Assembly (NCBI GenBank): GCA_965279515.1
Contig: CBDIID010000003.1
Location: forward strand, 96,001 to 160,000
DNA length: 64,000 bases
Source of the DNA: Turneriella sp.
GTDB lineage: Bacteria; Spirochaetota; Leptospiria; Turneriellales; Turneriellaceae
Reading direction: 5' to 3'
Under the pieces are notes generated by a model. It had not been told where the DNA came from and did not search any database. It saw nothing but the letters and a program-made list of their open reading frames with translations. The position numbers and the translations under genes are program-made. Shown here piece by piece: positions 118 to 63,524 of the stretch. Positions within the stretch are counted from its first letter, which is position 1. Each line of letters starts with the position of its first letter.

Positions 118-326
118 AACGTGGATTTTACGCTGACGTTTTTTGACGCTTGTGTCATTTATTCAATCTGTAAAGCCGATTTGCGTCAAAAAATGTGGTC
201 GTAGCGGCTCGCGGCGGCGCGCGAAAACACACCTCCCGGTGTGCGCGTCGTCCGCGATCTTTGCCGCGGAGACCCGAGCACGCGAGGAGCTACGGCACCG
301 CAGCGGCGCAGCGCGTAAAATTTGTT
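118..326 (-). repeat. attC-like site R1 (subtype A, ggattttacgctgacg)
   Basis: AAC...GTT, outer stem ttttacgc/gcgtaaaa, inner hairpins. Confidence 0.85.
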
Positions 327-339
327 GTCTGTCGTAAGC

Positions 340-639
340 CTAGGCAATTTTTTTCAGGCGTGGCTCGACTGTATAGCCAAGCGCGGCCAATACCTTCAGC
401 ATAAAATCAGTGCTAATATCTGATCTGCTTCGATTTAACAATGCAGTAATTCTTGTTCTTGAAGTTCCAACTCGTTTAGCCAAGGTTTCATGCGTCAGCT
501 TGGACTTACTAAATAGGCCAGCGATATCGGAGTTCAACTTTGAACGAAATACCGCGTCGGCGGCTTCATATTCAGTCAAACCAATAGCCTCAAAAAGCTC
601 TTTTGGATTCTTCGCTGTGATTACATTTAATTTAGCCAT
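340..639 (-). CDS. HigA-like XRE/HTH antitoxin
   Basis: HTH (LTHETLAKRVGTSRTRITALL), overlaps upstream RelE-like gene. Confidence 0.8.
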   Translation of the reverse strand: MAKLNVITAKNPKELFEAIGLTEYEAADAVFRSKLNSDIAGLFSKSKLTHETLAKRVGTSRTRITALLNRSRSDISTDFMLKVLAALGYTVEPRLKKIA

Positions 640-967
640 TTGTAGCCTCCAAAATTTCTCTCAATCTCTTCTTGCCGATATCTATTTCGCGTTTCAATGT
701 CTTCTCTGATTTCTTGATAAAAGTGTGAAACACTAAGACTTTGCCAGCTACTTTGAGGTAGTAAAAAGCCCTGTATTGATTCTGCGAATCCTTAACCCTC
801 AATTCGGAGACACCTGGAGCGACAGAAGGCATTGGTCGCGAATCTGGCATACTGACGCTCTCTCCCAGTTGTAAGTCGAGTATCAAATCCCCCAGTTTTG
901 CCTTGATCTCCTTGGAGTAGGACTTAATCTCGGACAATGCTGCCGGATGGAAGTCAGCATCTTTCAC
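632..967 (-). CDS. RelE/HigB (Gp49-like) toxin
   Basis: SRPMPSVAPGVSELRV...YRAFY...HTFIKKSEKT motif; toxin-first HigBA order. Confidence 0.85.
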   Translation of the reverse strand: MKDADFHPAALSEIKSYSKEIKAKLGDLILDLQLGESVSMPDSRPMPSVAPGVSELRVKDSQNQYRAFYYLKVAGKVLVFHTFIKKSEKTLKREIDIGKKRLREILEATNG

Positions 968-1028
968 TGCTTAATGTATTGAAAACAATACATGGCGTCA
1001 AGAAAAACTCGCGTGGCTTATGACAGAC

Positions 1029-1243
1029 AACGTGGAATTTACCCGAAGTCGATAGTGCGTCGCACAATAAATGCAGTCTTCACTCGAAAGCCACGACTTG
1101 ATGCACTATCGATTTGCCGAAGGTCGCCTCGTTGCGCCCGACCAAACAAACGTCCCGTTTGTCGGGCGTCAACGACTCCTGGCGACCGAGGCCGAGCACG
1201 CCCGCCAACGGAGTGCGGGCGCGCGCAGCGGGTAAATTTTGTT
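1029..1243 (-). repeat. attC-like site R2 (subtype D)
   Basis: AAC...GTT; tcgatagtgc/gcactatcga hairpin. Confidence 0.85.
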
Positions 1244-1294
1244 GTGCGAAGGTTTTGCGCCATACGGTAGATGCTTAGCAAAAAATTCCATGGC

Positions 1295-1747
1295 CTAAAT
1301 TAGAATCTTAGTTTCAATGAAATCTAGTCTTTTGCTTAACAAATCTGCCATTTGACGGGTCGGGCGGGCATCCACCGGTATCAAGTCTTCGATTGATCTC
1401 CCTTCTCGCACGGCGTCTACCCAGCGACCCATTTCATACACATAACCAGAAAGAGCCGCCGCTGGCGTTTCGTTATCAATCGCTGATATATAAGCAGATG
1501 GCAAATCACCCACGACTACCCAAAGCCAATTATCGGCCTTGCCATTTGGCAATATCTCAAAGAGGAAAACGGCCACTATACCACCAACTCCCAGGCCAAA
1601 ATGCGCATCTTTGATTTTCTTACACCAAGAGTGGCTTCTCAGATAGTCACTAGCCTCGAGATACATCTTCTTAAGCATTTTAGTGTCTGCGGCGTCTTCC
1701 CCGCGCATCTTTTTGATCGGCACAATATTCTTAAATTCAGCTTTCAT
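1295..1747 (-). CDS. Hypothetical protein, DUF4826-like
   Basis: WLWVVVGDLPSAYI motif; likely start MKAEFK at 1747 because the longer ORF starts inside the IS end. Confidence 0.55.
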   Translation of the reverse strand: MKAEFKNIVPIKKMRGEDAADTKMLKKMYLEASDYLRSHSWCKKIKDAHFGLGVGGIVAVFLFEILPNGKADNWLWVVVGDLPSAYISAIDNETPAAALSGYVYEMGRWVDAVREGRSIEDLIPVDARPTRQMADLLSKRLDFIETKILI

Positions 1748-1812
1748 ATTTATTGCAAAAGTTCCATCAAACTCCAGCAAAATACCCTTCCACGATGAAA
1801 AATAAATGCGCA

Positions 1813-3147
1813 GGTTCAATATCAGAACATCGGTAACGAAAAGTCATCACGACATCGGTAACAGTTCTGCCTCAGGCTTTGCCGTGGTTTCCTCCTGATT
1901 TGGTGTAAACAAATAATTGTTCCGATCGATGTAGCCCAATAGCAGGCCACCGAAGTAGACGTCGATGCGCATGTCGGCGATAAACCGGAGCCCGATCGGG
2001 TAGCCGTTAAAAGAATTGCCGATAAATATCCGGTGCTGCTTGTAGTTGGTGTAACCGCGGTCATTTACCATGCGTACGATGCAATCCTCAGGGTAGGCGG
2101 GTACTACGTCGCCAATATACGGAATTTCAGATGGTAGGTAGAACTCTGATGGCGTCCTCATGCCCAGGGCTTCATGCGGTCGCACATTGTTGAAGTCTTC
2201 GCGCCACTGATCAAACGAAATCTGGTGAAGCTTTAGATCACCGCGAATGCGCCCCTGCAGTTCCGTGCGGATGTCTCTGTGCATACGCTCATGGCCACCA
2301 TTCTGGGCTGGCTTTCCCGGATCAATGCGGTCCAGAGAAATTCCCAAGGACAGCCACCAGACTGACAATTTTGTCAGGCCAAAGAGTCCCCACGATGATG
2401 CGAAAGGAGTTCCGTTGTCAGAGCGAATAATTTCCGGCAGACCATAGCGTTTGAAGAGTCTGGCAAAGTGTTGTTTTACATTGGAAATATTGCCCTTTTC
2501 CAGTATCTGTATCGACAGGATGTACTTACTGTACTCATCGCGAACTGTCAGAGGTTCGCATTTCTCTGCATGTGCAGTATACCACCACCCCTTGAAATCA
2601 ACCGTCCATATGTGATTGGGATGCGTCGCCTTTTCGCGAAGCATCAGCCTCTCTCCGGTTCTGCGGCGCTTCTTTCCTCTTGGCCTTGTCAGACCAGAGC
2701 GCGCCAGAAGGCGATCGACTGTAGGAACTGAAATATCGTCTTTGCGCTCCGGGTAAAGCCTGCAGAAAACCGCATAGATCTTCTTGGCTCCCCAGCGCGG
2801 CCTGTTATTCTTTATGCGAATAATATCGCAGATTGTTTCTTCGTCAGTGCGGTTCGGATTGCCTCCTGGTTTTCGTGACAACTCCGCCAATCCAGCTAAG
2901 CCTTTTTCCAGAAACCTTGCCTTCCACTTGTACCCTGTCTTGGTGCTGATGCCAAACTCGCGGCACAGCTCTGTGAAACTCTCTACGCCCTCCAGGGCGC
3001 GAAAGACAAAAGATCTTTTCTCTTCCATTTTGGTAACCTCTTTCCACGGCATTTGAGCCCCCTGCCGAAGGCAGGCAAAAGCTCTTTGCGAAGCAAAGTG
3101 TTACCGATGTCTTGATAGAAATGTGTTACCTATGTCGTGATAGTACC
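1813..3147 (-). mobile_element. IS481-family IS, copy 1 (1335 bp)
   Basis: Ends GGTTC.../...GTACC with doubled subterminal TGTTACCGATGTC repeats; near-identical to three other copies; flanks do not form a TSD. Confidence 0.85.
1847..3052 (-). CDS. IS481-family DDE transposase
   Basis: N-terminal HTH, rve core WTVDFKG...SDNG...NGGHERMH; single ORF. Confidence 0.9.
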   Translation of the reverse strand: MPWKEVTKMEEKRSFVFRALEGVESFTELCREFGISTKTGYKWKARFLEKGLAGLAELSRKPGGNPNRTDEETICDIIRIKNNRPRWGAKKIYAVFCRLYPERKDDISVPTVDRLLARSGLTRPRGKKRRRTGERLMLREKATHPNHIWTVDFKGWWYTAHAEKCEPLTVRDEYSKYILSIQILEKGNISNVKQHFARLFKRYGLPEIIRSDNGTPFASSWGLFGLTKLSVWWLSLGISLDRIDPGKPAQNGGHERMHRDIRTELQGRIRGDLKLHQISFDQWREDFNNVRPHEALGMRTPSEFYLPSEIPYIGDVVPAYPEDCIVRMVNDRGYTNYKQHRIFIGNSFNGYPIGLRFIADMRIDVYFGGLLLGYIDRNNYLFTPNQEETTAKPEAELLPMS

Positions 3148-3162
3148 CCGCCAATGTCACAC

Positions 3163-3371
3163 AATGTGGATTTTACGCTGACGTTTTTTGACGCTTGTGT
3201 CATTAATTCAATCAGGCAAGCCGATTTGTGTCACCAAATCTGCCCGGAGCGCCTCGCGGCAAAGCACAAAACAAGCGTCCCGCTTGTGCTTTGTCCGCGA
3301 TCTTCTGGCGCGCAGGGCCGAGCACGCGAGGAGCTACGGCACCGCAGCGAGCGCAGCAGGTAAATTTTGTT
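3163..3371 (-). repeat. attC-like site R3 (chimeric A/C, core AAC mutated to AAT)
   Basis: Left arm subtype A, right arm subtype C; outer stem mismatched. Confidence 0.75.
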
Positions 3372-3425
3372 GTCTGACGTTTCTAACCCGCAATATGCCG
3401 CCGTAGCCATGGAGGGCGAAGGCGG

Positions 3426-3901: not shown

Positions 3902-4039
3902 AAGACAGGATAGCCAAGCCATTTAGTGCAGCAAGGATTTTCCAGAAATCTCGCTCTAAGCTAAAGTAAGCTCAATCACCAGGGCTCGACCGCGGCATGG
4001 ATGCCGCGTGCATGGTATTGCGGGTTAGAAATGTCAGAC

Positions 4040-4254
4040 AACATGGAATTTACACGAGGTCGATGGTGCGCCGCACAATAATAGTGGGCTTATTTGGAAA
4101 GCCGCATATTAAGCACCATCGATCTGCCGTAGACCGCTCGTTGCGCCTGACCAAACAAACGTCCCGTTTGTCAGGCGTCAACGATCTTTGCGGTCGGAGG
4201 CCGAGCACGCGAGGAGCTACGGCACCGCAGCGAGCGCAGCAGGTAAATTTTGTT
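4040..4254 (-). repeat. attC-like site R4 (subtype D)
   Basis: AAC...GTT folded repeat. Confidence 0.85.
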
Positions 4255-7338: not shown

Positions 7339-7369
7339 GTTAGGCGCAGTGATTTGAGCTACGTATCAA

Positions 7370-7564
7370 TCATTGTTTCGCCAAGGAGGGCGAAACAATG
7401 CGAACACCACGATCTATGATTAGTTCTTTGAATAGAGCAGAATTGTGCACTTCTTTTGATACCTTTTCAGAATATTCAGCAAGTGAAAGATGCTTATTAT
7501 TCTCGTATTCTCTGTTCCGAATACTTCTGACCCATTCGACACAATCAAATTTCTTCTTCGTCAT
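7370..7564 (-). CDS. Small putative antitoxin downstream of PIN gene
   Basis: MTKKKFDCVEW ORF overlapping PIN gene end. Confidence 0.6.
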   Translation of the reverse strand: MTKKKFDCVEWVRSIRNREYENNKHLSLAEYSEKVSKEVHNSALFKELIIDRGVRIVSPSLAKQ

Positions 7565-8015
7565 AAACCACCTCTTTCGGACTGCGAATTTCTAAACTCC
7601 TATACCCTTCACGGATATTTATTCCATTAAAGCCCATAATTCGGCTCACGTTCACAATATGCTTAAAATTCCAACTTAGCAATAAATCAGCTCCAAAATG
7701 AGCCGCCGTTGCTATGTGCAAGGCATCAACCTGGCACCATTGTGGTACAACCTTCTCCGTAATATACATCTGTGCCAACGTTCGCACTTCTGGCGTGGTG
7801 GTAATTTCAACCTGATATTCCTCGGGTATCCCTTTCAATACATTCTTAATCTCGGTCGGTGCACCTTCAAGCTCTTTCAGAGTCGTATCTGAAATCAAAG
7901 CAATATATCTACCACTCTTAATTCGATCGATAAGCATCAGTGATTCGACCGAGAATTCCTCGTCAAAACAACCGCCAATAACCGACGTATCGAGATAAAC
8001 CTTCAGAACGCGCAT
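7545..8015 (-). CDS. PIN-domain (VapC-like) toxin
   Basis: VYLDTSV...DALHIATA...LLSWNFKHIVN. Confidence 0.85.
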   Translation of the reverse strand: MRVLKVYLDTSVIGGCFDEEFSVESLMLIDRIKSGRYIALISDTTLKELEGAPTEIKNVLKGIPEEYQVEITTTPEVRTLAQMYITEKVVPQWCQVDALHIATAAHFGADLLLSWNFKHIVNVSRIMGFNGINIREGYRSLEIRSPKEVVYDEEEI

Positions 8016-8138
8016 TTTCAGCTAAAATATGCTCTAAAGATATATAAGGTCAACGCATAAATGTCGTGGCCAAAATCGACTGATGCCCGCCACGGATGGC
8101 GGGGGCGCCTTGGAAAACCCTCTCAAATCATTGCGCCT

Positions 8139-8345
8139 AACGTGGAATTTACCTGAGGTTGAGTGACGCTTTGTTCAAGTTTGTGTTCTGTAAAGCCATT
8201 TTGCGTCACTCAATCTGCCCGGAGCGCCTTGCGGCAAAGCACAAAACAAGCGTCCCGCTTGTGCTTTGTCCGCGATCTTCTGGCGCGTAGGGCCGAGCAC
8301 GCGAGGAGCCACGGCACCGCAGCGGCGCAGCAGGTAAATTTTGTT
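8139..8345 (-). repeat. attC-like site R6 (subtype B)
   Basis: AAC...GTT; gagtgacgc/gcgtcactc hairpin. Confidence 0.85.
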
Positions 8346-9182: not shown

Positions 9183-9395
9183 AACGTGGAAAATACCCGA
9201 CGTTGATGGTGCGTCATGCAATAAATACAGGCTTATTTGGAAAGCCGCATACGGAGCACCATCAATGTGCCCGAAGCGCCTCTCTGAGGAGCGCGAAACA
9301 AACCTCTGGGTTTGCGCGACGAAGAGATCTGTGGCGCGGAGGGCCGAGCACACGACCCAGCGCAGCGGTCGTGCGCGCAGCGGATATTTTTTGTT
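9183..9395 (-). repeat. attC-like site R7 (divergent)
   Basis: AAC...GTT folded repeat. Confidence 0.8.
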
Positions 9396-9444
9396 AGCTG
9401 CAGTTGCCGGTTCGGTAGCCGAGACCAAGGATGGTCGAGGCGAA

Positions 9445-9777
9445 TTACTTGCACCCAAGTTTATTGCAATATGTAGTTCGGATTTCTTGAGACTTAGATT
9501 CGCTTAACGCACCGACTCTGTATCGAATCAGCGACGTATGCAATGTATATATTTTGTCGCATCGGGCGAAGCTAGTCTTTGGCAATGTGCCACTTTTCAA
9601 GTCTGCCTGTTCAATTCGAATTGAATCGGGATGTCCCTGGTTTGAGGTAACAGAGAGGCAAATAAAATCGCCATTTCGGTCAGCAGGCGTCAGTACTACG
9701 ACCGGTCTCTGTTTGGAGCGAGCCAGGTCTGAGAAAGGAAAATTGACGGTTATCAGCTCAAACGGGCTTAAAGTCAT
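9445..9777 (-). CDS. PemK/MazF-family toxin
   Basis: FPFSDLARSKQRPVVVL...SFARCDKIYTL. Confidence 0.85.
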   Translation of the reverse strand: MTLSPFELITVNFPFSDLARSKQRPVVVLTPADRNGDFICLSVTSNQGHPDSIRIEQADLKSGTLPKTSFARCDKIYTLHTSLIRYRVGALSESKSQEIRTTYCNKLGCK

Positions 9778-9958
9778 TCCAGGCATCGTCCTCGGCATTA
9801 TCCCACGTTTTCGAAAGAGATTCTGACTGTGCTAACATTAGATTGGCGTCATCGATGCCGTGCTTTTGCTCTAAATACCCAATAAAATCCATGACTTCTT
9901 GCACAATTGGCTGCGGGAGCCTCTGTAGTTCTTGATATGCTAATTCCGCTAGACTCAT
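9758..9958 (-). CDS. DUF2281-like antitoxin
   Basis: LQRLPQPIVQEVMDFIGYL...WDNAEDDAWND; overlaps toxin. Confidence 0.75.
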   Translation of the reverse strand: MSLAELAYQELQRLPQPIVQEVMDFIGYLEQKHGIDDANLMLAQSESLSKTWDNAEDDAWNDFKPV

Positions 9959-10120
9959 TAGATACCTTGCGCCCTTACTTGCTAAAATATATTGAGGTGT
10001 AAACTATTATTGGCGTTGGGGACTTATGTCAGCCATTTCTTGCTCTTTTCTGAGCAAATAGCGCTAAACCCCGGCATGGATGCCGGGAGCGGACATTTTG
10101 TCTCACCGGCAATTGCAGCT

Positions 10121-10329
10121 AACGTGGATTTTACGCTGACGTTTTTTGACGCTCGTGTCATTTATTCAATTTGTAAAGCCGATTTGCGTCAAAAAATGTG
10201 GTCGTAGCGGCTCGCGGCGACGCGCGCAAACACACCTCCCGGTGTGCGCGTCGTCCGCGATCTTTGCCGCCCAGACCCGAGCACGCGAGGAGCTACGGCA
10301 CCGCAGCGGCGCAGCGCGTAAAATTTGTT
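10121..10329 (-). repeat. attC-like site R8 (A)
   Basis: AAC...GTT folded repeat. Confidence 0.85.
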
Positions 10330-11884: not shown

Positions 11885-12094
11885 AACGTTGGATTTTACG
11901 CTGACGTTTTTTGACGCTTGTGTCATTTATTCAATCTGTAAAGCCGATTTGCGTCAAAAAATGTGGTCGTAGCGGCTCGCGGCGACGCGCGAAAACACAC
12001 CTCCCGGTGTGCGCGTCGTCCGCGATCTTTGCCGCGGAGACCCGAGCACGCGAGGAGCTACGGCACCGCAGCGGCGCAGCGCGTAAAATTTGTT
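11885..12094 (-). repeat. attC-like site R10 (A)
   Basis: AAC...GTT folded repeat. Confidence 0.85.
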
Positions 12095-12189
12095 GGGCGC
12101 CGTTGTCGCTACGTAAAGCTCGGCCAAGGAGGGCCGAGCGTGAGCCTTTTCCCCTGATTATTCGAGAAAATGCTTTTTAGCCTGTTCAC

Positions 12190-12729
12190 ATGAAACAATT
12201 CGGAATTATGTCGCATTGGGGATGGACCATATTTCTTGTCATACTACTTGGGTGTAAAACCGCCCCGCCGGATTCGGTTGAAACGCTTAATGATGTTCAA
12301 TTAGAAGAGGACGAAGACCCCGCTGATTCAACGCGACTTATAATCAAGAAAATTGGACATACAGAGGCCAATGGCTTCAGACAATTAAGTGTACGAATCG
12401 AAATTTCTAGCTACGGCGAAGTTATGCAGTCTTTTCAAGAGCTCTTCATTACTTTTGGCTCGATTGAAAAGCTAGTCTTCGGTGAAAAGATTGCCTATTT
12501 CATTTCATGCGACAGGCAAGGGTCAACTTGGGCTGCCAAGAAAGCCATTATTGTATGGGATAAAGAAGGCATTTGGAGTATTTTGCCGCTGCATTTTGAT
12601 CGCGCCACGCTTCATAAAAATGAGAAGCGTTTCCTGATAGATGAGAAAATTGGCGTGATCGGCGAAAATCCTACTGGGAACCAGCTCTATGAGTTCAATG
12701 ATGGCTTGCTAACATTGTATAAACCCTGA
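12190..12729 (+). CDS. Putative lipoprotein (inverted cassette; same protein at 60030)
   Basis: VILLG-C lipobox-like. Confidence 0.75.
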   Translation: MKQFGIMSHWGWTIFLVILLGCKTAPPDSVETLNDVQLEEDEDPADSTRLIIKKIGHTEANGFRQLSVRIEISSYGEVMQSFQELFITFGSIEKLVFGEKIAYFISCDRQGSTWAAKKAIIVWDKEGIWSILPLHFDRATLHKNEKRFLIDEKIGVIGENPTGNQLYEFNDGLLTLYKP

Positions 12730-12811
12730 CTGACGTCATCCTGTTCAGCTTGCAAACAGGCGCGCAAGGATGCGCGCGAAATCGAAATTGATTTATGCGA
12801 CAATGGCGCCC

Positions 12812-13019
12812 AACGTGGAAAATACCCGAATTGCGCCCTCGCGGGTGTAAAGTGTAAATAATCACGGTTTATGCGACTTTCGTGGGAGCGCATTTGCCCG
12901 GAGCGCCTCGCGAGCCCGCCAATGCAGGCCCACTGGCCTGCGGGCGCAGCGATCTTTGGCGCGCAGGGCCGAGCACGCGACCCAACGTAGTGGTCGCGGC
13001 GCAGCGGGTATTTTTTGTT
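12812..13019 (-). repeat. attC-like site R11 (E)
   Basis: AAC...GTT; aaaatacccg/cgggtatttt outer stem. Confidence 0.85.
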
Positions 13020-26879: not shown

Positions 26880-27096
26880 AACGTGGAATTTACCTGAGGT
26901 CGATAGTGCATCGCACAATAAATGCAGTCTTTATTCGAAAGCCGCGTATTGATGCACTATCGATCTGCCGTAGGTCGCCTCGTTGCGCCGCACCGAATGC
27001 ACGTCCCGTGCGTGCGGCGTCAACGACTCTTAGGCGACCGGAGGCCGAGGACGCGAGCCAACGAAGTGCTCGCGCCCGCAGCAGGTAAATTTTGTT
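26880..27096 (-). repeat. attC-like site R27 (D)
   Basis: AAC...GTT folded repeat. Confidence 0.85.
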
Positions 27097-27143
27097 GTGC
27101 GTAGTTACGGTGGACAAAGTAGCAAGGGATTTAGCTTTGTATT

Positions 27144-27740
27144 ATGCGAGTTTCTAGTCTGCTTTCTCTGGCATTAATGGTTTCTGGATGTATTTCTGAA
27201 AGGAGTTTCATATCACCAGAAGGGAAGCTTGAATTTGAAATAGTTGGCAGGTTCTTTAACGATGAAAGGGCGAAATCTTGGCAGGGCCCTGTGCAGAGAG
27301 TCCAAGTAGAAATCAGCAAAAAAGACGGCAAGTACACAGGTACCATAGATCGGAAAATTGTCCACCTAAGGGATGATAAGATTTTTATGGTCCATTATAA
27401 GGCTGAATTGTACGGGGCTCGGCATTCAGCGCATGAAATAAATTTCAGAGATCGCATAATTTTATCGTGTGGCTATTATCTAAAGGATGGGATCAAGAAG
27501 CCTATTCTGGATTTGGTGCTTGAGGATTTCAAAGGTCCAGACTGCAGATCTAAAGAGAATCTCGAGCAATATCAGGCTAGAGAGGAAAAAGAGGAATTTG
27601 GCTCAATATACTTCAACATAAAAAACAATTCAGAGATCTGGTGGAGTCCGAAGGAGGACATGAGGTCAATAAAGTTAGTTCGGCAAATGGACCCATTCAA
27701 AACAGAATCTGAATTAGCGGGAAAAATTTTCCCACCGTAA
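27144..27740 (+). CDS. Putative lipoprotein (inverted cassette, lacks ANGGA hairpins)
   Basis: LMVSG-C lipobox; stop codon lies inside the cassette terminal repeat. Confidence 0.75.
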   Translation: MRVSSLLSLALMVSGCISERSFISPEGKLEFEIVGRFFNDERAKSWQGPVQRVQVEISKKDGKYTGTIDRKIVHLRDDKIFMVHYKAELYGARHSAHEINFRDRIILSCGYYLKDGIKKPILDLVLEDFKGPDCRSKENLEQYQAREEKEEFGSIYFNIKNNSEIWWSPKEDMRSIKLVRQMDPFKTESELAGKIFPP

Positions 27741-27748
27741 TTACGCAC

Positions 27749-27955
27749 AACGTGGATTTTACGCTGACGTTTTTTGACGCTCGTGTCATTTATTCAATCT
27801 GTAAAGCCGATTCGCGTCAAAAAATGTGGTCGTAGCGGCTCGCGGCGAGGCGCGAAAACACACCTCCCGGTGTGCGCGTCGTCCGCGATCTTTGCCGCGG
27901 AGACCCGAGCACGCGACCCAACGGAGTGGTCGCGGCGCAGCGCGTAAAATTTGTT
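27749..27955 (-). repeat. attC-like site R28 (A/E mosaic)
   Basis: AAC...GTT folded repeat. Confidence 0.85.
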
Positions 27956-30050: not shown

Positions 30051-30258
30051 AACGTGGAATTTACCTGACGATTGGTGACACTTGTGTCATTAATTTAATC
30101 AGGAAAGCCAAATCGTGTCACCAATTGTGCCCGGAGCGCCTCGCGGCAAAGCACAAAACAAGCGTCCCGCTTGTGCTTTGTCCGCGATCTTCTGGCGCGT
30201 AGGGCCGAGCACGCGAGGAGCCACGGCACCGCAGCGAGCGCAGCAGGTAAATTTTGTT
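30051..30258 (-). repeat. attC-like site R31 (C)
   Basis: AAC...GTT folded repeat. Confidence 0.85.
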
Positions 30259-30267
30259 GTGCGATGG

Positions 30268-31188: not shown

Positions 31189-31202
31189 ATTGACTTTCGC
31201 AC

Positions 31203-31417
31203 AACGTGGAATTTACACGAGGTCGATGGTGCGTTGCACAAAAACAGCAGGCTTATTTAGAAAACCGCGTATTAAGCACCATCGATCTGCCGTAGACCGC
31301 TCGTTGCGCCTGACCAAACAAACGTCCCGTTTGTCAGGCGTCAACGATCTTTGCGGTCGGAGGCCGAGCACGCGAGGAGCCACGGCACCGCAGCGAGCGC
31401 AGCGTGTAAATTTTGTT
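31203..31417 (-). repeat. attC-like site R32 (D)
   Basis: AAC...GTT folded repeat. Confidence 0.85.
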
Positions 31418-40710: not shown

Positions 40711-42045
40711 GGTACAATATCAGAACATCGGTAACGAAAAGTCATCACGACATCGGTAACAGTTCTGCCTCAGGCTTTGCCGTGGTTTCCTCCTGATTTG
40801 GTGTAAACAAATAATTGTTCCGATCGATGTAGCCCAATAGCAGGCTACCGAAGTAGACGTCGATGCGCATGTCGGCGATAAACCGGAGCCCGATCGGGTA
40901 GCCGTTAAAAGAATTGCCGATAAATATCCGGTGCTGCTTGTAGTTGGTGTAACCGCGGTCATTTACGATGCGTACGATGCAATCCTCAGGGTAGGCGGGT
41001 AGTACGTCGCCAGTATACGGAATTTCAGATGGTAGGTAGAACTCTGATGGCGTCCTCATGCCCAGGGCTTCATGCGGTCGCACATTGTTGAAGTCTTCGC
41101 GCCACTGATCAAACGAAATCTGGTGAAGCTTTAGATCACCGCGAATGCGCCCCTGCAGTTCCGTGCGGATGTCTCTGTGCATACGCTCATGTCCGCCATT
41201 CTGCGCTGGCTTTCCCGGATCAATGCGGTCCAGAGAAATTCCCAAGGACAGCCACCAGACTGACAATTTTGTCAGGCCAAAGAGGCCCCACGATGATGCG
41301 AAAGGAGTTCCGTTGTCAGAGCGAATAATTTCCGGCAGACCATAGCGTTTGAAGAGTCTGGCAAAGTGTTGTTTTACATTGGAAATATTGCCCTTTTCCA
41401 GTATCTGTATCGACAGGATGTACTTACTGTACTCATCGCGAACTGTCAGAGGTTCGCATTTCTCTGCATGTGCAGTATACCACCACCCCTTGAAATCAAC
41501 CGTCCATATGTGATTGGGATGCGTCGCCTTTTCGCGAAGCATCAGCCTCTCTCCGGTTCTGCGGCGCTTCTTTCCTCTTGGCCTTGTCAGACCAGAGCGC
41601 GCCAGAAGGCGATCGACTGTAGGCACTGAAATATCGCCTTTGCGCTCGGGGTAAAGCCTGCAGAAGACCGCATAGATCTTCTTGGCTCCCCAGCGAGGCC
41701 TGTTATTCTTTATGCGAATAATGTCGCAGATTGTTTCTTCGTCAGTGCGGTTCGGATTGCCTCCTGGTTTTCGTGACAACTCCGCCAATCCAGCTAAGCC
41801 TTTTTCCAGAAACCTTGCCTTCCACTTGTACCCTGTCTTGGTGCTGATACCAAACTCGCGGCACAGCTCTGTGAAACTCTCTACGCCCTCCAGGGCGCGA
41901 AAGACAAAAGATCTTTTCTCTTCCATTTTGGTAACCTCTTTCCACGGCATTTGAGCCCCCTGCCGAAGGCAGGCAAAAGCCCGTTGCGAAGCAAAGTGTT
42001 ACCGATGTCTTGATAGAAATGTGTTACCTATGTCGTGATAGTACC
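40711..42045 (-). mobile_element. IS481-family IS, copy 2
   Basis: GGTAC...GTACC; flanks GGCA vs TAAT do not match. Confidence 0.9.
40745..41950 (-). CDS. IS481-family transposase
   Basis: Near-identical to copy 1. Confidence 0.9.
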   Translation of the reverse strand: MPWKEVTKMEEKRSFVFRALEGVESFTELCREFGISTKTGYKWKARFLEKGLAGLAELSRKPGGNPNRTDEETICDIIRIKNNRPRWGAKKIYAVFCRLYPERKGDISVPTVDRLLARSGLTRPRGKKRRRTGERLMLREKATHPNHIWTVDFKGWWYTAHAEKCEPLTVRDEYSKYILSIQILEKGNISNVKQHFARLFKRYGLPEIIRSDNGTPFASSWGLFGLTKLSVWWLSLGISLDRIDPGKPAQNGGHERMHRDIRTELQGRIRGDLKLHQISFDQWREDFNNVRPHEALGMRTPSEFYLPSEIPYTGDVLPAYPEDCIVRIVNDRGYTNYKQHRIFIGNSFNGYPIGLRFIADMRIDVYFGSLLLGYIDRNNYLFTPNQEETTAKPEAELLPMS

Positions 42046-42061: not shown

Positions 42062-42270
42062 AACGTGGATTTTACGCTGACGTTTTTTGACGCTTGTGTC
42101 ATTTATTCAGTTTGTAAAGCCGATTTGCGTCAAAAAATGTGGTCGTAGCGGCTCGCGGCGACGCGCGAAAACACACCTCCCGGTGTGCGCGTCGTCCGCG
42201 ATCTTAGCCGCGGAGACCCGAGCACGCGAGGAGCTACGGCACCGCAGCGGCGCAGCGCGTAAAATTTGTT
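42062..42270 (-). repeat. attC-like site R43 (A)
   Basis: AAC...GTT folded repeat. Confidence 0.85.
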
Positions 42271-42483
42271 GTCTGAAGTAATTGCGCCTGTGAGCCCGGC
42301 TAGGAGGGCCGGGCGACAACGGCTAAGGCTTCACTGGAAAATTTAAAAAGATACTTAACTCAAAAGTTCTCACAGCCTGCCATTCTGTCGCCTCGCAAAA
42401 CAGGCTTTACGCCTAAGACTTACTGGATTCCGAATGTCTTAGTAAGGAGTAAGTTCCTAGTATTTAATATAGGGGGAAGACCA

Positions 42484-42771
42484 ATGACAGCCTGGTGGAA
42501 TCTATTTAATAAAAGCGAAAGGTATTTCGGGTCATCACCGCTTGCACAACCTGAATGGGCGCAACCTTTGTTAGCTATCGGTACTTTAGTTAGAATTACG
42601 TCCAAGCCTGAAAAAATACGCGAGGTAATTGAAATAGAATGGCATTGGCATCGGCACGAATTTGTGTATGTTATTGAAACTAGCGCATTAAATTTGTCCC
42701 CGCCGTTTAAACCCTACTGGTTTTTAAGTCAATTGGTCTCACATCAAGATAAATCCCTTCGGGCAATATAG
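42484..42771 (+). CDS. Hypothetical protein (inverted cassette)
   Basis: 95-aa ORF with purine-rich RBS. Confidence 0.55.
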   Translation: MTAWWNLFNKSERYFGSSPLAQPEWAQPLLAIGTLVRITSKPEKIREVIEIEWHWHRHEFVYVIETSALNLSPPFKPYWFLSQLVSHQDKSLRAI

Positions 42772-42906
42772 AAAATCTTTTCTTACATTCATTTCTAAAA
42801 TAAAGCCCTTTAATGCTATAACTGCCCATAGCTGGTTAGTCTGTCGGTGGAAGTTCGCCGCGCCGACAGGAGGTCGGCGGAGAACAAAGGCGCAATTATT
42901 TCAGAC

Positions 42907-43113
42907 AACGTGGAATTTACCTGAGGTTGAGTGACGCCTCGTTCAACTTTGTGTTCTGTAAAGCCATATTGCGTCACTCAATCTGCCCGGAGCGCCTCGC
43001 GGCAAAGCACAAAACAAGCGTCCCGCTTGTGCTTTGTCCGCGATCTTCGGCGCGTAGGGCCGAGCACGCGAGGAGCTACGGCGCCGCAGCGAGCGCAGCA
43101 GGTAAATTTTGTT
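42907..43113 (-). repeat. attC-like site R44 (B)
   Basis: AAC...GTT folded repeat. Confidence 0.85.
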
Positions 43114-47088: not shown

Positions 47089-48423
47089 GGTACAATATCA
47101 GAACATCGGTAACGAAAAGTCATCACGACATCGGTAACAGTTCTGCCTCAGGCTTTGCCGTGGTTTCCTCCTGATTTGGTGTAAACAAATAATTGTTCCG
47201 ATCGATGTAGCCCAATAGCAGGCTACCGAAGTAGACGTCGATGCGCATGTCGGCGATAAACCGGAGCCCGATCGGGTAGCCGTTAAAAGAATTGCCGATA
47301 AATATCCGGTGCTGCTTGTAGTTGGTGTAACCGCGGTCATTTACGATGCGTACGATGCAATCCTCAGGGTAGGCGGGTAGTACGTCGCCAGTATACGGAA
47401 TTTCAGATGGTAGGTAGAACTCTGATGGCGTCCTCATGCCCAGGGCTTCATGCGGTCGCACATTGTTGAAGTCTTCGCGCCACTGATCAAACGAAATCTG
47501 GTGAAGCTTTAGATCACCGCGAATGCGCCCCTGCAGTTCCGTGCGGATGTCTCTGTGCATACGCTCATGGCCACCATTCTGGGCTGGCTTTCCCGGATCA
47601 ATGCGGTCCAGAGAAATTCCCAAGGACAGCCACCAGACTGACAATTTTGTCAGGCCAAAGAGGCCCCACGATGATGCGAAAGGAGTTCCGTTGTCAGAGC
47701 GAATAATTTCCGGCAGACCATAGCGTTTGAAGAGTCTGGCAAAGTGTTGTTTTACATTGGAAATATTGCCCTTTTCCAGTATCTGTATCGACAGGATGTA
47801 CTTACTGTACTCATCGCGAACTGTCAGAGGTTCGCATTTCTCTGCATGTGCAGTATACCACCACCCCTTGAAATCAACCGTCCATATGTGATTGGGATGC
47901 GTCGCCTTTTCGCGAAGCATCAGCCTCTCTCCGGTTCTGCGGCGCTTCTTTCCTCTTGGCCTTGTCAGACCAGAGCGCGCCAGAAGGCGATCGACTGTAG
48001 GCACTGAAATATCGCCTTTGCGCTCGGGGTAAAGCCTGCAGAAGACCGCATAGATCTTCTTGGCTCCCCAGCGAGGCCTGTTATTCTTTATGCGAATAAT
48101 GTCGCAGATTGTTTCTTCGTCAGTGCGGTTCGGATTGCCTCCTGGTTTTCGTGACAACTCCGCCAATCCAGCTAAGCCTTTTTCCAGAAACCTTGCCTTC
48201 CACTTGTACCCTGTCTTGGTGCTGATGCCAAACTCGCGGCACAGCTCTGTGAAACTCTCTACGCCCTCCAGGGCGCGAAAGACAAAAGATCTTTTCTCTT
48301 CCATTTTGGTAACCTCTTTCCACGGCATTTGAGCCCCCTGCCGAAGGCAGGCAAAAGCTCTTTGCGAAGCAAAGTGTTACCGATGTCTTGATAGAAATGT
48401 GTTACCTATGTCGTGATAGTACC
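47089..48423 (-). mobile_element. IS481-family IS, copy 3
   Basis: 4-bp TSD GGAG (47085-47088, 48424-48427) confirmed against empty copies. Confidence 0.92.
47123..48328 (-). CDS. IS481-family transposase
   Basis: Same protein as copy 2. Confidence 0.9.
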   Translation of the reverse strand: MPWKEVTKMEEKRSFVFRALEGVESFTELCREFGISTKTGYKWKARFLEKGLAGLAELSRKPGGNPNRTDEETICDIIRIKNNRPRWGAKKIYAVFCRLYPERKGDISVPTVDRLLARSGLTRPRGKKRRRTGERLMLREKATHPNHIWTVDFKGWWYTAHAEKCEPLTVRDEYSKYILSIQILEKGNISNVKQHFARLFKRYGLPEIIRSDNGTPFASSWGLFGLTKLSVWWLSLGISLDRIDPGKPAQNGGHERMHRDIRTELQGRIRGDLKLHQISFDQWREDFNNVRPHEALGMRTPSEFYLPSEIPYTGDVLPAYPEDCIVRIVNDRGYTNYKQHRIFIGNSFNGYPIGLRFIADMRIDVYFGSLLLGYIDRNNYLFTPNQEETTAKPEAELLPMS

Positions 48424-60029: not shown

Positions 60030-60569
60030 ATGAAACAATTCGGAATTATGTCGCATTGGGGATGGACCATATTTCTTGTCATACTACTTGGGTGTAAAAC
60101 CGCCCCGCCGGATTCGGTTGAAACGCTTAATGATGTTCAATTAGAAGAGGACGAAGACCCCGCTGATTCAACGCGACTTATAATCAAGAAAATTGGACAT
60201 ACAGAGGCCAATGGCTTCAGACAATTAAGTGTACGAATCGAAATTTCTAGCTACGGCGAAGTTATGCAGTCTTTTCAAGAGCTCTTCATTACTTTTGGCT
60301 CGATTGAAAAGCTAGTCTTCGGTGAAAAGATTGCCTATTTCATTTCATGCGACAGGCAAGGGTCAACTTGGGCTGCCAAGAAAGCCATTATTGTATGGGA
60401 TAAAGAAGGCATTTGGAGTATTTTGCCGCTGCATTTTGATCGCGCCACGCTTCATAAAAATGAGAAGCGTTTCCTGATAGATGAGAAAATTGGCGTGATC
60501 GGCGAAAATCCTACTGGGAACCAGCTCTATGAGTTCAATGATGGCTTGCTAACATTGTATAAACCCTGA
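60030..60569 (+). CDS. Putative lipoprotein, duplicate of 12190..12729
   Basis: Identical translation. Confidence 0.75.
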   Translation: MKQFGIMSHWGWTIFLVILLGCKTAPPDSVETLNDVQLEEDEDPADSTRLIIKKIGHTEANGFRQLSVRIEISSYGEVMQSFQELFITFGSIEKLVFGEKIAYFISCDRQGSTWAAKKAIIVWDKEGIWSILPLHFDRATLHKNEKRFLIDEKIGVIGENPTGNQLYEFNDGLLTLYKP

Positions 60570-60639
60570 CTGACGTCATCCTGTTCAGCTTGCAAACAGG
60601 CGCGCAAGGATGCGCGCGAAATCGAAATTGATTTATGCG

Positions 60640-61974
60640 GGTACAATATCAGAACATCGGTAACGAAAAGTCATCACGACATCGGTAACAGTTCTGCCTC
60701 AGGCTTTGCCGTGGTTTCCTCCTGATTTGGTGTAAACAAATAATTGTTCCGATCGATGTAGCCCAATAGCAGGCTACCGAAGTAGACGTCGATGCGCATG
60801 TCGGCGATAAACCGGAGCCCGATCGGGTAGCCGTTAAAAGAATTGCCGATAAATATCCGGTGCTGCTTGTAGTTGGTGTAACCGCGGTCATTTACGATGC
60901 GTACGATGCAATCCTCAGGGTAGGCGGGTAGTACGTCGCCAGTATACGGAATTTCAGATGGTAGGTAGAACTCTGATGGCGTCCTCATGCCCAGGGCTTC
61001 ATGCGGTCGCACATTGTTGAAGTCTTCGCGCCACTGATCAAACGAAATCTGGTGAAGCTTTAGATCACCGCGAATGCGCCCCTGCAGTTCCGTGCGGATG
61101 TCTCTGTGCATACGCTCATGTCCGCCATTCTGCGCTGGCTTTCCCGGATCAATGCGGTCCAGAGAAATTCCCAAGGACAGCCACCAGACTGACAATTTTG
61201 TCAGGCCAAAGAGGCCCCACGATGATGCGAAAGGAGTTCCGTTGTCAGAGCGAATAATTTCCGGCAGACCATAGCGTTTGAAGAGTCTGGCAAAGTGTTG
61301 TTTTACATTGGAAATATTGCCCTTTTCCAGTATCTGTATCGACAGGATGTACTTACTGTACTCATCGCGAACTGTCAGAGGTTCGCATTTCTCTGCATGT
61401 GCAGTATACCACCACCCCTTGAAATCAACCGTCCATATGTGATTGGGATGCGTCGCCTTTTCGCGAAGCATCAGCCTCTCTCCGGTTCTGCGGCGCTTCT
61501 TTCCTCTTGGCCTTGTCAGACCAGAGCGCGCCAGAAGGCGATCGACTGTAGGCACTGAAATATCGCCTTTGCGCTCGGGGTAAAGCCTGCAGAAGACCGC
61601 ATAGATCTTCTTGGCTCCCCAGCGAGGCCTGTTATTCTTTATGCGAATAATGTCGCAGATTGTTTCTTCGTCAGTGCGGTTCGGATTGCCTCCTGGTTTT
61701 CGTGACAACTCCGCCAATCCAGCTAAGCCTTTTTCCAGAAACCTTGCCTTCCACTTGTACCCTGTCTTGGTGCTGATACCAAACTCGCGGCACAGCTCTG
61801 TGAAACTCTCTACGCCCTCCAGGGCGCGAAAGACAAAAGATCTTTTCTCTTCCATTTTGGTAACCTCTTTCCACGGCATTTGAGCCCCCTGCCGAAGGCA
61901 GGCAAAAGCCCGTTGCGAAGCAAAGTGTTACCGATGTCTTGATAGAAATGTGTTACCTATGTCGTGATAGTACC
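60640..61974 (-). mobile_element. IS481-family IS, copy 4
   Basis: 4-bp TSD TGCG (60636-60639, 61975-61978) confirmed against empty copy near 12796. Confidence 0.92.
60674..61879 (-). CDS. IS481-family transposase
   Basis: Same protein as copy 2. Confidence 0.9.
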   Translation of the reverse strand: MPWKEVTKMEEKRSFVFRALEGVESFTELCREFGISTKTGYKWKARFLEKGLAGLAELSRKPGGNPNRTDEETICDIIRIKNNRPRWGAKKIYAVFCRLYPERKGDISVPTVDRLLARSGLTRPRGKKRRRTGERLMLREKATHPNHIWTVDFKGWWYTAHAEKCEPLTVRDEYSKYILSIQILEKGNISNVKQHFARLFKRYGLPEIIRSDNGTPFASSWGLFGLTKLSVWWLSLGISLDRIDPGKPAQNGGHERMHRDIRTELQGRIRGDLKLHQISFDQWREDFNNVRPHEALGMRTPSEFYLPSEIPYTGDVLPAYPEDCIVRIVNDRGYTNYKQHRIFIGNSFNGYPIGLRFIADMRIDVYFGSLLLGYIDRNNYLFTPNQEETTAKPEAELLPMS

Positions 61975-61990
61975 TGCGACAATGGCGCCC

Positions 61991-62198
61991 AACGTGGAAT
62001 TTACCTGACGTTTGGTGACACTTGTGTCATTAATTTAATAAGGAAAGCCAAATTGTGTCACCAAATGTGCCCGGAGCGCCTCGCGGCAAAGCACAAAACA
62101 AGCGTCCCGCTTGTGCTTTGTCCGCGATCTTCTGGCGCGTAGGGCCGAGCACGCGAGGAGCCACGGCACCGCAGCGAGCGCAGCAGGTAAATTTTGTT
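61991..62198 (-). repeat. attC-like site R62 (C)
   Basis: AAC...GTT folded repeat. Confidence 0.85.
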
Positions 62199-62221
62199 GT
62201 ACGTCGTGTTTGGGGATCAAT

Positions 62222-63226
62222 TTAGTAAGGTGTTCTCTTTATCCAGTTAAGGTATTCTGGGCTTCGTTGACTTCCGTAGTTTGTAAGGGCTTCATTAAGC
62301 CAATCTTTGGGGTTTGGCTTTGCTTGAATATTAAACTTCGGATCATCCATACATTCCGCGAAGTAATATACTATTTTACCCTTATGACCGAAAATGGTGA
62401 CGATAGTTCTGGTTAGTTCGCCCCGTTCATTTGGGTGATGTTTTTTGTAGCTTTCAAGGTAAACAAAATACTCTAAGAGTTTATCGTATTGTATCGGCGC
62501 AGCTTTACCGACGAAGATTTTTTGGGGTTTCAAGAAAGATAGGTTTCGCCTCGCTTTACTTTCAAAATATTTATCAATCGCAGCTATGTTGTCAGACATT
62601 AGGTGTTTCTTTATATTTTCAAAGCTATGAATATCATTCGAGTAGTGGTATATTACCTGTTGGGATTGACTTGTGTCAAAACTAAAAAAATTACTGTCCG
62701 GAAAAACGGGCTTCAGTATGTAGGTTTGAGTTTTCTTATTGGGATCGAAGAGTTGAGTTAAAATTTTCTCAGATTCTTGTTCTGTTACTGTAGGACCATC
62801 ATCCTTCGGAAAAAAGATGCGCACTAAACTGTATATTTTTGGGGCTTCGTACAAAATGTAGGCAACATATGTTATTTTGAACTGAGGATCATCTTTGCTC
62901 TTTAAGACGGCCGAAAGTCGCGTTTTGCCAATTAAAGTACTAATCTTAATTTCACTCACATGCGGCTCGGCCTTAGATAACCATTCTTTTCTCCGCTGTT
63001 CTAAATCATCGATGTGAAAGCCGCCATATTCTACCTCCACTAATGGCATTGAAAATTTAGCTTTATCGGTCATGCCTGCGCTGAGCTCAATGGCCTTTAG
63101 GTCATTTTCTGTTGCGAAATAACTGGCTACTCTCCTGTTCGGAAAATTCGGGACAAATTTATATTCAGCAATATCTTCAGACCACAAGGGAATCGAAGCT
63201 AAAAAAACAAGGACTATTGCTTTCAT
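62222..63226 (-). CDS. Hypothetical exported protein
   Basis: 334 aa, signal peptide MKAIVLVFLASIPLWS. Confidence 0.7.
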   Translation of the reverse strand: MKAIVLVFLASIPLWSEDIAEYKFVPNFPNRRVASYFATENDLKAIELSAGMTDKAKFSMPLVEVEYGGFHIDDLEQRRKEWLSKAEPHVSEIKISTLIGKTRLSAVLKSKDDPQFKITYVAYILYEAPKIYSLVRIFFPKDDGPTVTEQESEKILTQLFDPNKKTQTYILKPVFPDSNFFSFDTSQSQQVIYHYSNDIHSFENIKKHLMSDNIAAIDKYFESKARRNLSFLKPQKIFVGKAAPIQYDKLLEYFVYLESYKKHHPNERGELTRTIVTIFGHKGKIVYYFAECMDDPKFNIQAKPNPKDWLNEALTNYGSQRSPEYLNWIKRTPY

Positions 63227-63282
63227 ATTCGGTTAATAGATTTTAGAAAGCCTATGGTGAAAAGTAAAATAGTCAAGCCACG

Positions 63283-63299
63283 TATGTCGTGATAGTACC
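63283..63299 (-). mobile_element. IS481 terminal remnant (17 bp)
   Basis: TATGTCGTGATAGTACC equals the IS end, at the same offset from attC as full copies. Confidence 0.7.
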
Positions 63300-63315
63300 C
63301 CCAAACATGACGTAC

Positions 63316-63524
63316 AACGTGGATTTTACGCTGACGTTTTTTGACGCTTGTGTCATTTAATCAATTTGTAAAGCCGATTTGCGTCAAAAAATGTGGTCGT
63401 AGCGGCTCGCGGCGACGCGCGAAAACACACCTCCCGGTGCGCGCGTCGTCCGCGATCTTTGCCGCGAAGACCCGAGCACGCGAGGAGCTACGGCACCGCA
63501 GCGGCGCAGCGCGTAAAATTTGTT
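63316..63524 (-). repeat. attC-like site R63 (A)
   Basis: AAC...GTT folded repeat. Confidence 0.85.

What the first reader, a model, noticed from the sequence alone, without database searches (positions are those of the whole stretch)
324..63318. Cassettes have their own extended terminal inverted repeats with a near-invariant G:T wobble at position 11
Seen: the sequence after each GTT is the reverse complement of the sequence before the next AAC for about 15-27 bp, well beyond the 7-bp R box, and is cassette-specific. Left end vs reverse complement of right end: GTTGTCTGTC-G-TAAGCC vs -A- (324/1031); GTTGTCTGAC-G-TTTCTAACCCGCAATA vs -A- (3369/4042); GTTAGGCGCA-G-TGATTTGAG vs -A- (7339/8141); GTTAGCTGCA-G-TTGCCGG vs -A- (9393/10123); GTTGGGCGCC-G-TTGTCGC vs -A- (12092/12814); GTTGTGCGTA-G-TTACGGTGG vs -A- (27094/27751). 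The mismatch is a G:T wobble on the + strand and C:A on the - strand, a built-in strand asymmetry outside the R box. Some repeats overlap the gene's stop or start codon (27738-27740, 45559-45561). Inference: one end may be templated from the other during cassette birth, a footprint of the still unknown cassette-creation mechanism, or the wobble is an extra strand-selection determinant.
Basis: partly seen in the sequence, partly recalled or inferred. Interest (0 to 1): 0.8.

Follow-up and report, generated by a model that had tools for sequence, protein, structure and literature searches.

The report
Wobble-marked stems close integron-like cassettes
In this bacterium's long array of swappable gene cassettes, the two ends of nearly every cassette match each other over about 18 bases with one fixed G-T mispair, a design not seen in the classical integrons compared, which probably lets a simpler recombinase recognise the right folded DNA strand.

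Summary
In 54 of 62 window cassettes the ends match at ≥5 of positions 12-17, against 3 of 62 for neighbouring ends. Position 11 never matches in 127 own or 257 related cassettes and is G/A in 96-97%. None of 355 cassettes beside classical IntI shows the extension; published pairing is 9-11 nt (PMC2727003).

This is not a classical integron: no IntI passes the cut-off, and relatives carry a tyrosine recombinase lacking the IntI insertion beside the attI-like site.

The + strand is the inferred recombining strand, so the mispair is G-T there. Other internal wobbles lean the same way, 18 to 2, and related cassettes change both ends together. So the stem is maintained, not a frozen birth scar.

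Best reading: positions 1-12 are a recombinase arm, position 11 marks the strand cut, and positions 13-18 clamp the stem. No activity was shown. The scan has noted this pattern before in other genomes.

The parts
118..63524 (-). Part of an integron-like cassette array (75 repeats over G000:C3:93004-169916). Cassettes read mostly on the - strand; the attI-like site lies outside the window at C3:170673.
118..326 (+). Example attC-like body (AAC...GTT, mostly 200-217 bp). It belongs to the cassette on its right and folds more stably on the + strand.
324..340 (+). Left (attC-side, R''-like) arm of cassette 324-1031, G at position 11 (334)
1015..1031 (+). Right (attI-side, R'-like) arm of cassette 324-1031, T at position 11 (1021); crossover inferred at the terminal AAC
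3369..3395 (+). Left arm of cassette 3369-4042, the longest stem found (27 bp)
4016..4042 (+). Right arm of cassette 3369-4042
7339..8141 (.). Cassette with intact 20-bp paired ends, separated from its attC-like body by a transposase insertion
9393..10123 (.). Cassette with 19-bp paired ends; PemK/MazF-like cargo; homologues in G007 and G016
12092..12814 (.). Cassette with 18-bp paired ends; second copy at 59932-61993 has the same left body but a different right body
27094..27751 (.). Cassette with 20-bp paired ends; stop codon of a + strand gene at 27738-27740 inside the right arm
30256..31205 (.). Cassette whose 22-bp stem overlaps both the start and the stop codon of its ORF; T-T at position 10
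42268..42909 (.). Example of the reusable end frame (22-bp stem plus a small hairpin inside each end) shared by 27 cassettes with different cargo; also 45785-46707
1813..3147 (-). IS481-like element inserted 18 nt inside a cassette's right end
40711..42045 (-). IS481-like element, 19 nt inside a cassette's right end
47089..48423 (-). IS481-like element, 19 nt inside a right end, 4-bp target duplication at stem positions 16-19
60640..61974 (-). IS481-like element, 19 nt inside a right end, 4-bp target duplication
62196..63318 (.). Last complete cassette of the finding; a lone IS end sits 19 nt inside its right end (ends at 63299)

Best explanation
The terminal repeat is the outer stem of the recombination hairpin as it exists in the excised single-stranded cassette circle, in an integron-like system run by a tyrosine recombinase that lacks the IntI insertion. 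SHOWN: each cassette travels with the body on its left and enters at an attI-like site on its right, so the + strand is the equivalent of the bottom strand. The stem has a 12-base consensus part and a 5-10-base sequence-free part, and it is maintained after birth. INFERRED: positions 1-12 are the recombinase-binding arm. T at position 11 on the AAC-bearing strand marks the one arm that is cut. The partner G keeps that position paired as a wobble on the + strand, makes a C-A mismatch on the - strand, and keeps the cassette's other end from being a perfect arm. Positions 13-18 clamp the helix so that 11-12 stay paired and the fold mimics duplex DNA, which an enzyme without the bulge-reading insertion needs. 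Because a cassette's own ends pair far better than neighbouring ends, the clamp also favours release of the circle and its use for insertion.
For: Direction: left body ≥90% identical in 70 of 98 near-identical cassette pairs, right body in 3 of 98, random 11% (pairs not independent); attI-like sites at the right ends of both arrays; lead cassettes keep their own stems in 5 of 5 arrays. Enzyme: no IntI over cut-off; a 366-aa recombinase with intact catalytic residues lacks 29+9 alignment columns of IntI; an attI-like motif lies beside its homologue in 7 of 14 relative loci. Selection on the + fold: internal wobbles 18 on + vs 2 on - (p=0.0004); circle fold more stable on + in 114 of 114, and more stable than the array form in 110 of 114, by 14.8 kcal/mol on average; own-end duplex -21.4 vs neighbour -7.7 kcal/mol. 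Arm rule: G at position 8 in cassette ends, 317 of 324 inner arms and the attI-like inner arms; position 11 is G in 315 of 324 inner arms and 126 of 127 left ends, A only in right ends. Maintenance: 14 two-ended changes, 16 one-sided, 2 other in 15 families. Class link: 0 of 355 classical cassettes extended vs 278 of 300 here under the same filter; 9 of 11 stems found beside insertion-less recombinases in metagenome and viral contigs have the same G/A pair, A always on the recombinase-proximal end.
Against: No recombination was observed; contigs laid on the window gave no usable joint. In this genome the recombinase lies far from both arrays (C3:2926094-2927194), so its role rests on relatives. 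The wobble alone is worth only about 1.6 kcal/mol between strands, and the - strand still folds its outer stem in the model, so selection must involve protein reading, which is untested. One-sided changes (16) are as common as concerted ones, and 41 of 61 internal mismatches are not wobbles, 25 of them T-T at position 10. Only 7 of 49 insertion-less loci showed a stem with the strict finder, and 3 hits came from IntI loci, none G/A. The model does not say how 197 distinct position 12-18 words became complementary in the first place.
Confidence: 0.58

Rival explanations
1. Birth footprint: positions 13-18 are made when a cassette is created, by one end being copied from the other (fold-back or template switch), and need no later function.
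For: 197 distinct position 12-18 words in 346 cassettes and about 290 cargo families are hard to reach by point mutation alone. Stop codons overlap the left arm in 42 of 180 ORFs and ATGs the right arm in 20 of 180, both in 11. The right arm is GC-richer (0.54-0.63 at 14-18) than the leader beyond it (0.23-0.38 at 21-29).
Against: Cannot give a position that never matches (0 of 384). 14 concerted two-ended changes after birth, an 18:2 strand bias of wobbles, and one frame reused by 27 cargo families. The native-end test found one homologue for two cargo proteins.
Confidence: 0.17
2. Junction pre-assembly: on exposed single-stranded DNA a cassette's own ends pair before any cut, building a four-way junction with the two flanking hairpin bodies. 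Excision is then Holliday-junction resolution, an ordinary Xer-type step, and the long stem replaces the IntI insertion as the synapsis aid.
For: In minimum-energy folds of two-site segments the own ends pair (16-18 of 18 positions) in 11 of 14 cassettes on the + strand. Long stems go with insertion-less enzymes and short ones with IntI. Both arrays expose the + strand as lagging-strand template by GC skew.
Against: Equilibrium folds of 0.8-1 kb ignore kinetics and single-strand binding protein. The fourth arm (outer neighbours) formed in only 2 of 14. Own ends also pair on the - strand in 12 of 14. Cassettes of several kb would need very long-range pairing.
Confidence: 0.15
3. Duplex recombination: the enzyme cuts double-stranded sites, A versus G at position 11 only tells active from inactive arms, and the extension is kept by hairpin-guided repair or conversion without a role.
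For: The enzyme is closest to XerA-type profiles. The attI-like site has inverted arms 4 nt apart. A/G at 11 can be read as plain sequence.
Against: After AAC the body has a 6-nt spacer where attI has 4, and the 4-nt geometry is restored only by the far arm in the folded strand. The strand-biased wobbles are not expected for duplex sites.
Confidence: 0.07
4. Another host tyrosine recombinase (such as the 311- or 312-aa ones) serves these arrays, and the stem mimics its duplex site as in CTX phage.
For: Three other tyrosine recombinase genes exist in the genome and none lies beside the arrays.
Against: The 366-aa enzyme's homologues sit at the attI-like site in 7 of 14 relative loci. By genus and family its presence tracks the repeat (15 vs 14 of 20 genomes).
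Confidence: 0.03

Closest known systems
Classical integrons (IntI, attI, attC), especially sedentary chromosomal integrons; R'/R'' self-pairing of 9-11 nt (Bouvier 2009, PMC2727003, passages read)
   Same: Array of mostly co-oriented cassettes bounded by GTT and AAC, a head site like attI, a palindromic site that belongs to the upstream gene, own-end complementarity, toxin-antitoxin and unknown cargo. Best fold match of the enzyme is VchIntIA, 2a3v.
   Different: No IntI insertion; bodies mostly 200-217 bp vs 57-141 (PMC5027507, passage); 4-nt attI spacer; a 2-nt bulge in the spacer instead of the single extrahelical G in the inner arm; stems of about 18 with a fixed G-T, found in 0 of 355 classical cassettes. 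In 16 Vibrio gene-less cassettes read by eye, several near-identical, pairing ended at about 9-12 (PMC11014356 supplement part 2 of 4).
CTX phage attP and other elements exploiting Xer (PMC4792948, PMC7790495, passages)
   Same: A folded single strand that mimics duplex DNA, without extrahelical bases, recombined by an enzyme that lacks the I2 helix.
   Different: Here the enzyme appears dedicated and heads an array; there is no phage and no dif site was identified. A role of wobble pairs at CTX attP is recalled only; the search for it found nothing.
Strand selection at attC by extrahelical bases, unpaired spacer and terminal structure (PMC5027507, PMC2727003, passages)
   Same: Asymmetry between the two folded strands picks the one recombined.
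   Different: The candidate determinant lies at the outer end of the R arm and is a G-T pair; the word 'wobble' occurs in none of PMC5027507, PMC2727003, PMC7439510.
ISAba32 subgroup of IS1202, inserting 5-6 bp from Xer sites (bioRxiv 10.1101/2022.12.17.520857, passages)
   Same: An insertion sequence placed in one orientation at a fixed distance outside a recombinase arm.
   Different: Here the element is IS481-like (209.8 bits, cut-off 224; 33 bits to the ISNCY model), with a 4-bp duplication at stem positions 16-19.

Membership tests
Classical integron (IntI) | Integrase with the IntI-specific insertion (I2) | tested here: not met
   No match over the TIGR02249 cut-off in the genome; candidate enzyme scores 161 of 265 bits and lacks 29+9 columns
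Classical integron (IntI) | Recombinase gene next to attI | tested here: inconclusive
   Not in this genome; attI-like motif beside the homologue in 7 of 14 relative loci
Classical integron (IntI) | attI-like head site where cassettes enter at GTT/AAC | tested here: met
   Conserved non-palindromic site after the last AAC of both arrays; lead cassettes keep their stems in 5 of 5 arrays
Classical integron (IntI) | attC bounded by AAC and GTT that folds better on one strand | tested here: met
   126 of 127 right ends and 127 of 127 left ends keep the triplet; + fold more stable in 114 of 114
Classical integron (IntI) | attC of 57-141 bp with a conserved extrahelical G in the inner arm | tested here: not met
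   Bodies 160-217 bp in this genome; 6 versus 4 nt spacer and no single bulged G at that place in the four folds viewed
Classical integron (IntI) | Own-end pairing limited to about 9-11 nt | tested here: not met
   Mode 18; 278 of 300 extended here vs 0 of 355 classical
Classical integron (IntI) | Single-strand, bottom-strand-specific recombination | not testable with these tools
   Needs an assay; contigs gave no usable joints
Element exploiting host XerCD (CTX type) | Integration at chromosomal dif by host XerC/D | tested here: inconclusive
   A search with a recalled dif arm motif gave only chance-level hits; a dedicated recombinase is linked in relatives
Transposon with terminal inverted repeats | Shared terminal repeats across copies, target duplications, own transposase | tested here: not met
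   Ends are private from position 13, cassettes alternate strictly with the bodies and most carry no transposase
IS1202 family, ISAba32 subgroup (for the inserted element) | TGT ends, 5-6 bp duplication abutting the Xer arm | tested here: not met
   Ends start GGT, duplication 3-4 bp, IS481-like profile

The most novel reading that the evidence does not exclude
A second, possibly ancestral, integron chemistry: instead of a protein insertion that reads bulged bases, each cassette carries its own clamp. The private stem pre-builds a four-way junction that a Xer-like enzyme resolves, one G-T pair tells it which strand to cut, and new cassettes arise by swapping cargo inside reusable end frames such as the one that holds 27 different cargo families here.
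Probability: 0.2. Interest if true: 0.86.

Novelty: new variant of a known kind. Interest (0 to 1): 0.62.

Why it matters
The I2 insertion is held to be what lets integron integrases use folded single strands (PMC4792948, PMC7790495, passages). Arrays of 50-200 cassettes served by an enzyme without it need another way to choose a strand and avoid cutting the wrong arm. This finding names a one-base candidate and a stem that can be mutated directly. It also bears on how cassettes are made: position 11 is not a birth scar, but the private stem and the reusable frames are concrete handles on that open question. An insertion sequence that lands at the stem's outer edge offers an independent probe of the site.

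Tried and rejected
Classical IntI in the genome: none over cut-off. The DDE genes at the array's left end are insertion-sequence transposases, not the cassette enzyme. Native-end test: two homologue searches gave one outside homologue (55% identical, ends one residue shorter) and none, so inconclusive. Sequencing runs: no RNA holder listed; only contigs, broken at the repeats, so no evidence on circles either way. dif search with a recalled motif: chance hits only. A class-wide search for the recombinase used the wrong part of the protein and is uninformative. Plasmid searches gave unrelated integrases and class 1/2 integrons, not analysed further. No Vibrio array was identified among the fetched loci; Vibrio was judged only by eye from a supplement, parts 1, 3 and 4 unread. 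A long repeat type in L309 gave no extended stems. Arms as part of a body module: association of positions 4-10 with the own body is weak (0.067, shuffle maximum 0.047) and related cassettes often have different bodies, so rejected as the main source of concerted change. GC skew around the arrays of G007 and G016 changes sign, so their orientation to replication is unresolved. Literature: nine searches showed no paper on stems beyond 11 nt with a fixed wobble, or on insertion-less cassette arrays; most subscription papers, including the two that Bouvier cites for the 9-11 nt figure, were not searchable.
Full report
OBSERVATION. The six quoted end pairs are present as written. A profile built from 44 window repeats found 143 hits in the genome; those in two arrays, C3:93004-169916 (75 repeats, holding the window) and C3:3734382-3804588 (52), define 127 cassettes with the two lead cassettes. 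Left end against reverse-complemented right end: identity 0.87-0.96 at positions 4-10, zero at 11, 0.92-0.97 at 12-16, 0.83 and 0.78 at 17-18, about 0.5 at 19-22, background from about 26. Position 11 is G at the left in 126 and A at the right in 124 of 127. In the window, 54 of 62 cassettes match at ≥5 of positions 12-17, against 3 of 62 neighbour ends and 217 of 3782 cross pairs. Nine window cassettes fail a stricter test and are transposase-bearing, offset by one base, or mismatched. In five genomes of the same genus, 257 cassettes give the same profile, with 0 matches at 11 and 96% G/A; 42 of 201 repeats in G007 and 5 others had no left boundary and their cassettes were dropped.

ANATOMY. 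Among 263 distinct well-matched end pairs, position 11 is G/A in all. Information is at least 0.56 bit up to position 12 and at most 0.18 bit at 13-20. So there is a 12-base consensus arm and a private extension. Modal stem length is 18 and there are 197 distinct words at 12-18 in 346 cassettes. Main ORFs lie on the - strand in 222 of 303 cassettes. Near-identical cassettes share the left body in 70 of 98 pairs and the right body in 3 (many pairs come from multi-copy families). Each array ends on the right in a conserved non-palindromic site after an AAC. Hence the crossover is at the right-hand AAC, the + strand plays the bottom strand, and the mispair is G-T on that strand. In the circle the two ends flank the cassette's own body, so the 'terminal repeat' is the outer stem of that hairpin.

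THE ENZYME. No integron integrase passes the family cut-off in this 99.99% complete genome. A 366-aa tyrosine recombinase at C3:2926094-2927194 keeps the catalytic residues and lacks the IntI insertion. Its best profile is XerA-like and its best fold matches are VchIntIA and XerA. It is unlinked here, but an attI-like motif lies beside its homologue in 7 of 14 loci from relatives, and enzyme and repeat occur in 15 and 14 of 20 family genomes. That it serves these arrays is inferred.

IS IT GENERAL? Bouvier 2009 states that own-end pairing extends to 9-11 nt in most cassettes (PMC2727003, passage), so extension past 7 bp is known. I detected classical attC sites by their inner geometry beside bona fide IntI genes, keeping loci with at least two cassettes, removing duplicates and keeping ends with ≥3 of 4 matches at 4-7: 76 of 78 from the same phylum, 233 of 240 from the family of a Luteimonas genome, 36 of 41 other Gammaproteobacteria, 10 of 10 mixed. 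Pairing ends at about 8, 12, 9-12 and 9-11, and 0 of 355 have ≥5 of 6 at 12-17; position 11 shows no G/A bias. The same filter gives 278 of 300 here. Vibrio was seen only by eye in 16 gene-less cassettes of a supplement, with pairing to about 9-12. A finder blind to position 11, run on 160 metagenome and viral loci, found 11 stems in 7 of 49 loci with insertion-less recombinases, 9 with the G/A pair and A on the recombinase-proximal end; 3 in 72 IntI loci, none G/A; 6 in 39 unclassified loci, one G/A; 2 in shuffles. The pattern therefore goes with the insertion-less class.

FUNCTION OR SCAR? Other internal mismatches that can wobble do so on + in 18 cases and on - in 2 (p=0.0004); 41 are not wobbles, 25 of them T-T at position 10. 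In 15 families of related cassettes, 14 changes affect both ends and keep the pair, 16 affect one end, 2 both without pairing; two edges with unrelated ends were skipped. A decaying scar would rarely give two-ended changes. Circle-form sites fold more stably on + than on - in 114 of 114, and more stably than the array form in 110 of 114; own ends pair at -21.4 kcal/mol against -7.7 for neighbours; the wobble alone separates the strands by about 1.6. G at position 8 recurs in all four arm types, while position 11 is G in left ends and in 315 of 324 inner arms, C or T in the attI-like inner arms, and A only in right ends. So only the arm that is cut carries T at 11 on its AAC strand. The likeness of this 12-base arm to Xer arms is recalled, not tested.

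MECHANISM. Most likely (0.58): a duplex-mimicking hairpin for an enzyme that cannot read bulges, with position 11 as arm and strand mark and 13-18 as clamp, which also makes circle release downhill. Steps shown: geometry, direction, maintenance, class link. Steps inferred: single-strand recombination, protein reading of position 11, role of the clamp. A bolder form has own ends pairing before the cut to give a four-way junction; own ends pair in 11 of 14 two-site folds on +, but also in 12 of 14 on -, and the fourth arm forms in 2 of 14. The closest published logic is CTX phage, whose folded strand mimics duplex DNA for Xer enzymes without I2 (PMC4792948, PMC7790495, passages).

BIRTH. Position 11 is not a copying scar. 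For 13-18 the question is open: stop codons overlap the left arm in 42 and ATGs the right arm in 20 of 180 ORFs, and homologue searches could not tell which end is native. One frame, a 22-bp stem with a small hairpin inside each end, occurs in 27 cassettes that fall in 27 cargo families by my homology cut-offs, which suggests that some cassettes arise by cargo replacement within old ends; very distant cargo homology was not excluded.

AN INDEPENDENT PROBE. Of 10 copies of one end of an IS481-like element, 9 lie 18-19 nt inside a cassette's right end in one orientation, with a 3-4 bp duplication where both flanks match (4 of 6 with both ends found); one more copy lies at 19 nt in G014. This parallels elements that insert 5-6 bp from Xer sites (bioRxiv 10.1101/2022.12.17.520857, passages).

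NOVELTY. It works like an integron and is not a member of the IntI family by three tested features. Nine literature searches showed no description, within a library that lacks most subscription papers. The scan has noted both the insertion-less enzyme and the position-11 wobble in other genomes; those notes are unchecked and are not counted as support. Verdict: real, new variant of a known kind, interest 0.62.

Noticed in passing
window 1813-3147, 40711-42045, 47089-48423, 60640-61974, lone end at 63299: An IS481-like element inserts 18-19 nt inside the cassettes' right ends in 9 of 10 copies, in one orientation, with a 3-4 bp duplication.
   Followed up: partly
window 5602-7338: A transposase element (DUF772 plus DDE domains) sits exactly at a left-end GTT, which is duplicated, separating cassette 7339-8141 from its body.
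   Followed up: partly
window 39081, 42268, 45785, 50554, 53015, 55970 and both arrays: A reusable end frame with small hairpins (core GGA[GT]GG) inside both ends; 27 of 127 own cassettes have the core at both ends, and such hairpins lie mostly on the + strand of the arrays (133 vs 2).
   Followed up: partly
window 15115-15308, 19374-19567, 59533-59727 and array 2: A 194-bp near-empty cassette recurs about ten times with a second G-T wobble at position 8.
   Followed up: no
G000:C3:170673 and C3:3805399: Two separate arrays each have their own attI-like site with no recombinase beside it; a TTGACA hexamer lies about 35 bases upstream on the - strand in both.
   Followed up: partly
both arrays of G000: GC skew puts the inferred bottom strand on the lagging-strand template, opposite to what is reported for large sedentary integrons (PMC8946536, passage).
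   Followed up: partly
G000 array 1; G007:C1:3.45-3.67 Mb; G016:C1:1.32-1.37 Mb: These arrays lie near where GC skew turns from positive to negative, the likely replication terminus.
   Followed up: no
G000:C3, e.g. 1909101, 2805276, 3496552-3497420, 3630609-3634200, 4812270: About 16 solitary, partly decayed repeats lie outside the arrays, some flanking a cassette with paired ends.
   Followed up: no
left ends such as window 29349, 30256, 33093, 34027: When left position 10 is T the partner is T (T-T beside the wobble) and position 12 is free instead of T.
   Followed up: no
window cargo, e.g. 9448-9798, 20887-21282, 22824-23252, 36556-37059, 52273-52740: Cargo includes PemK/MazF, PIN, RelB, SMI1/KNR4, ankyrin and methyltransferase domains; 34 of 50 proteins scanned had no Pfam hit.
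   Followed up: no
L316 (viral contig): An insertion-less recombinase with a co-oriented array shows the same wobble in mirror orientation.
   Followed up: partly
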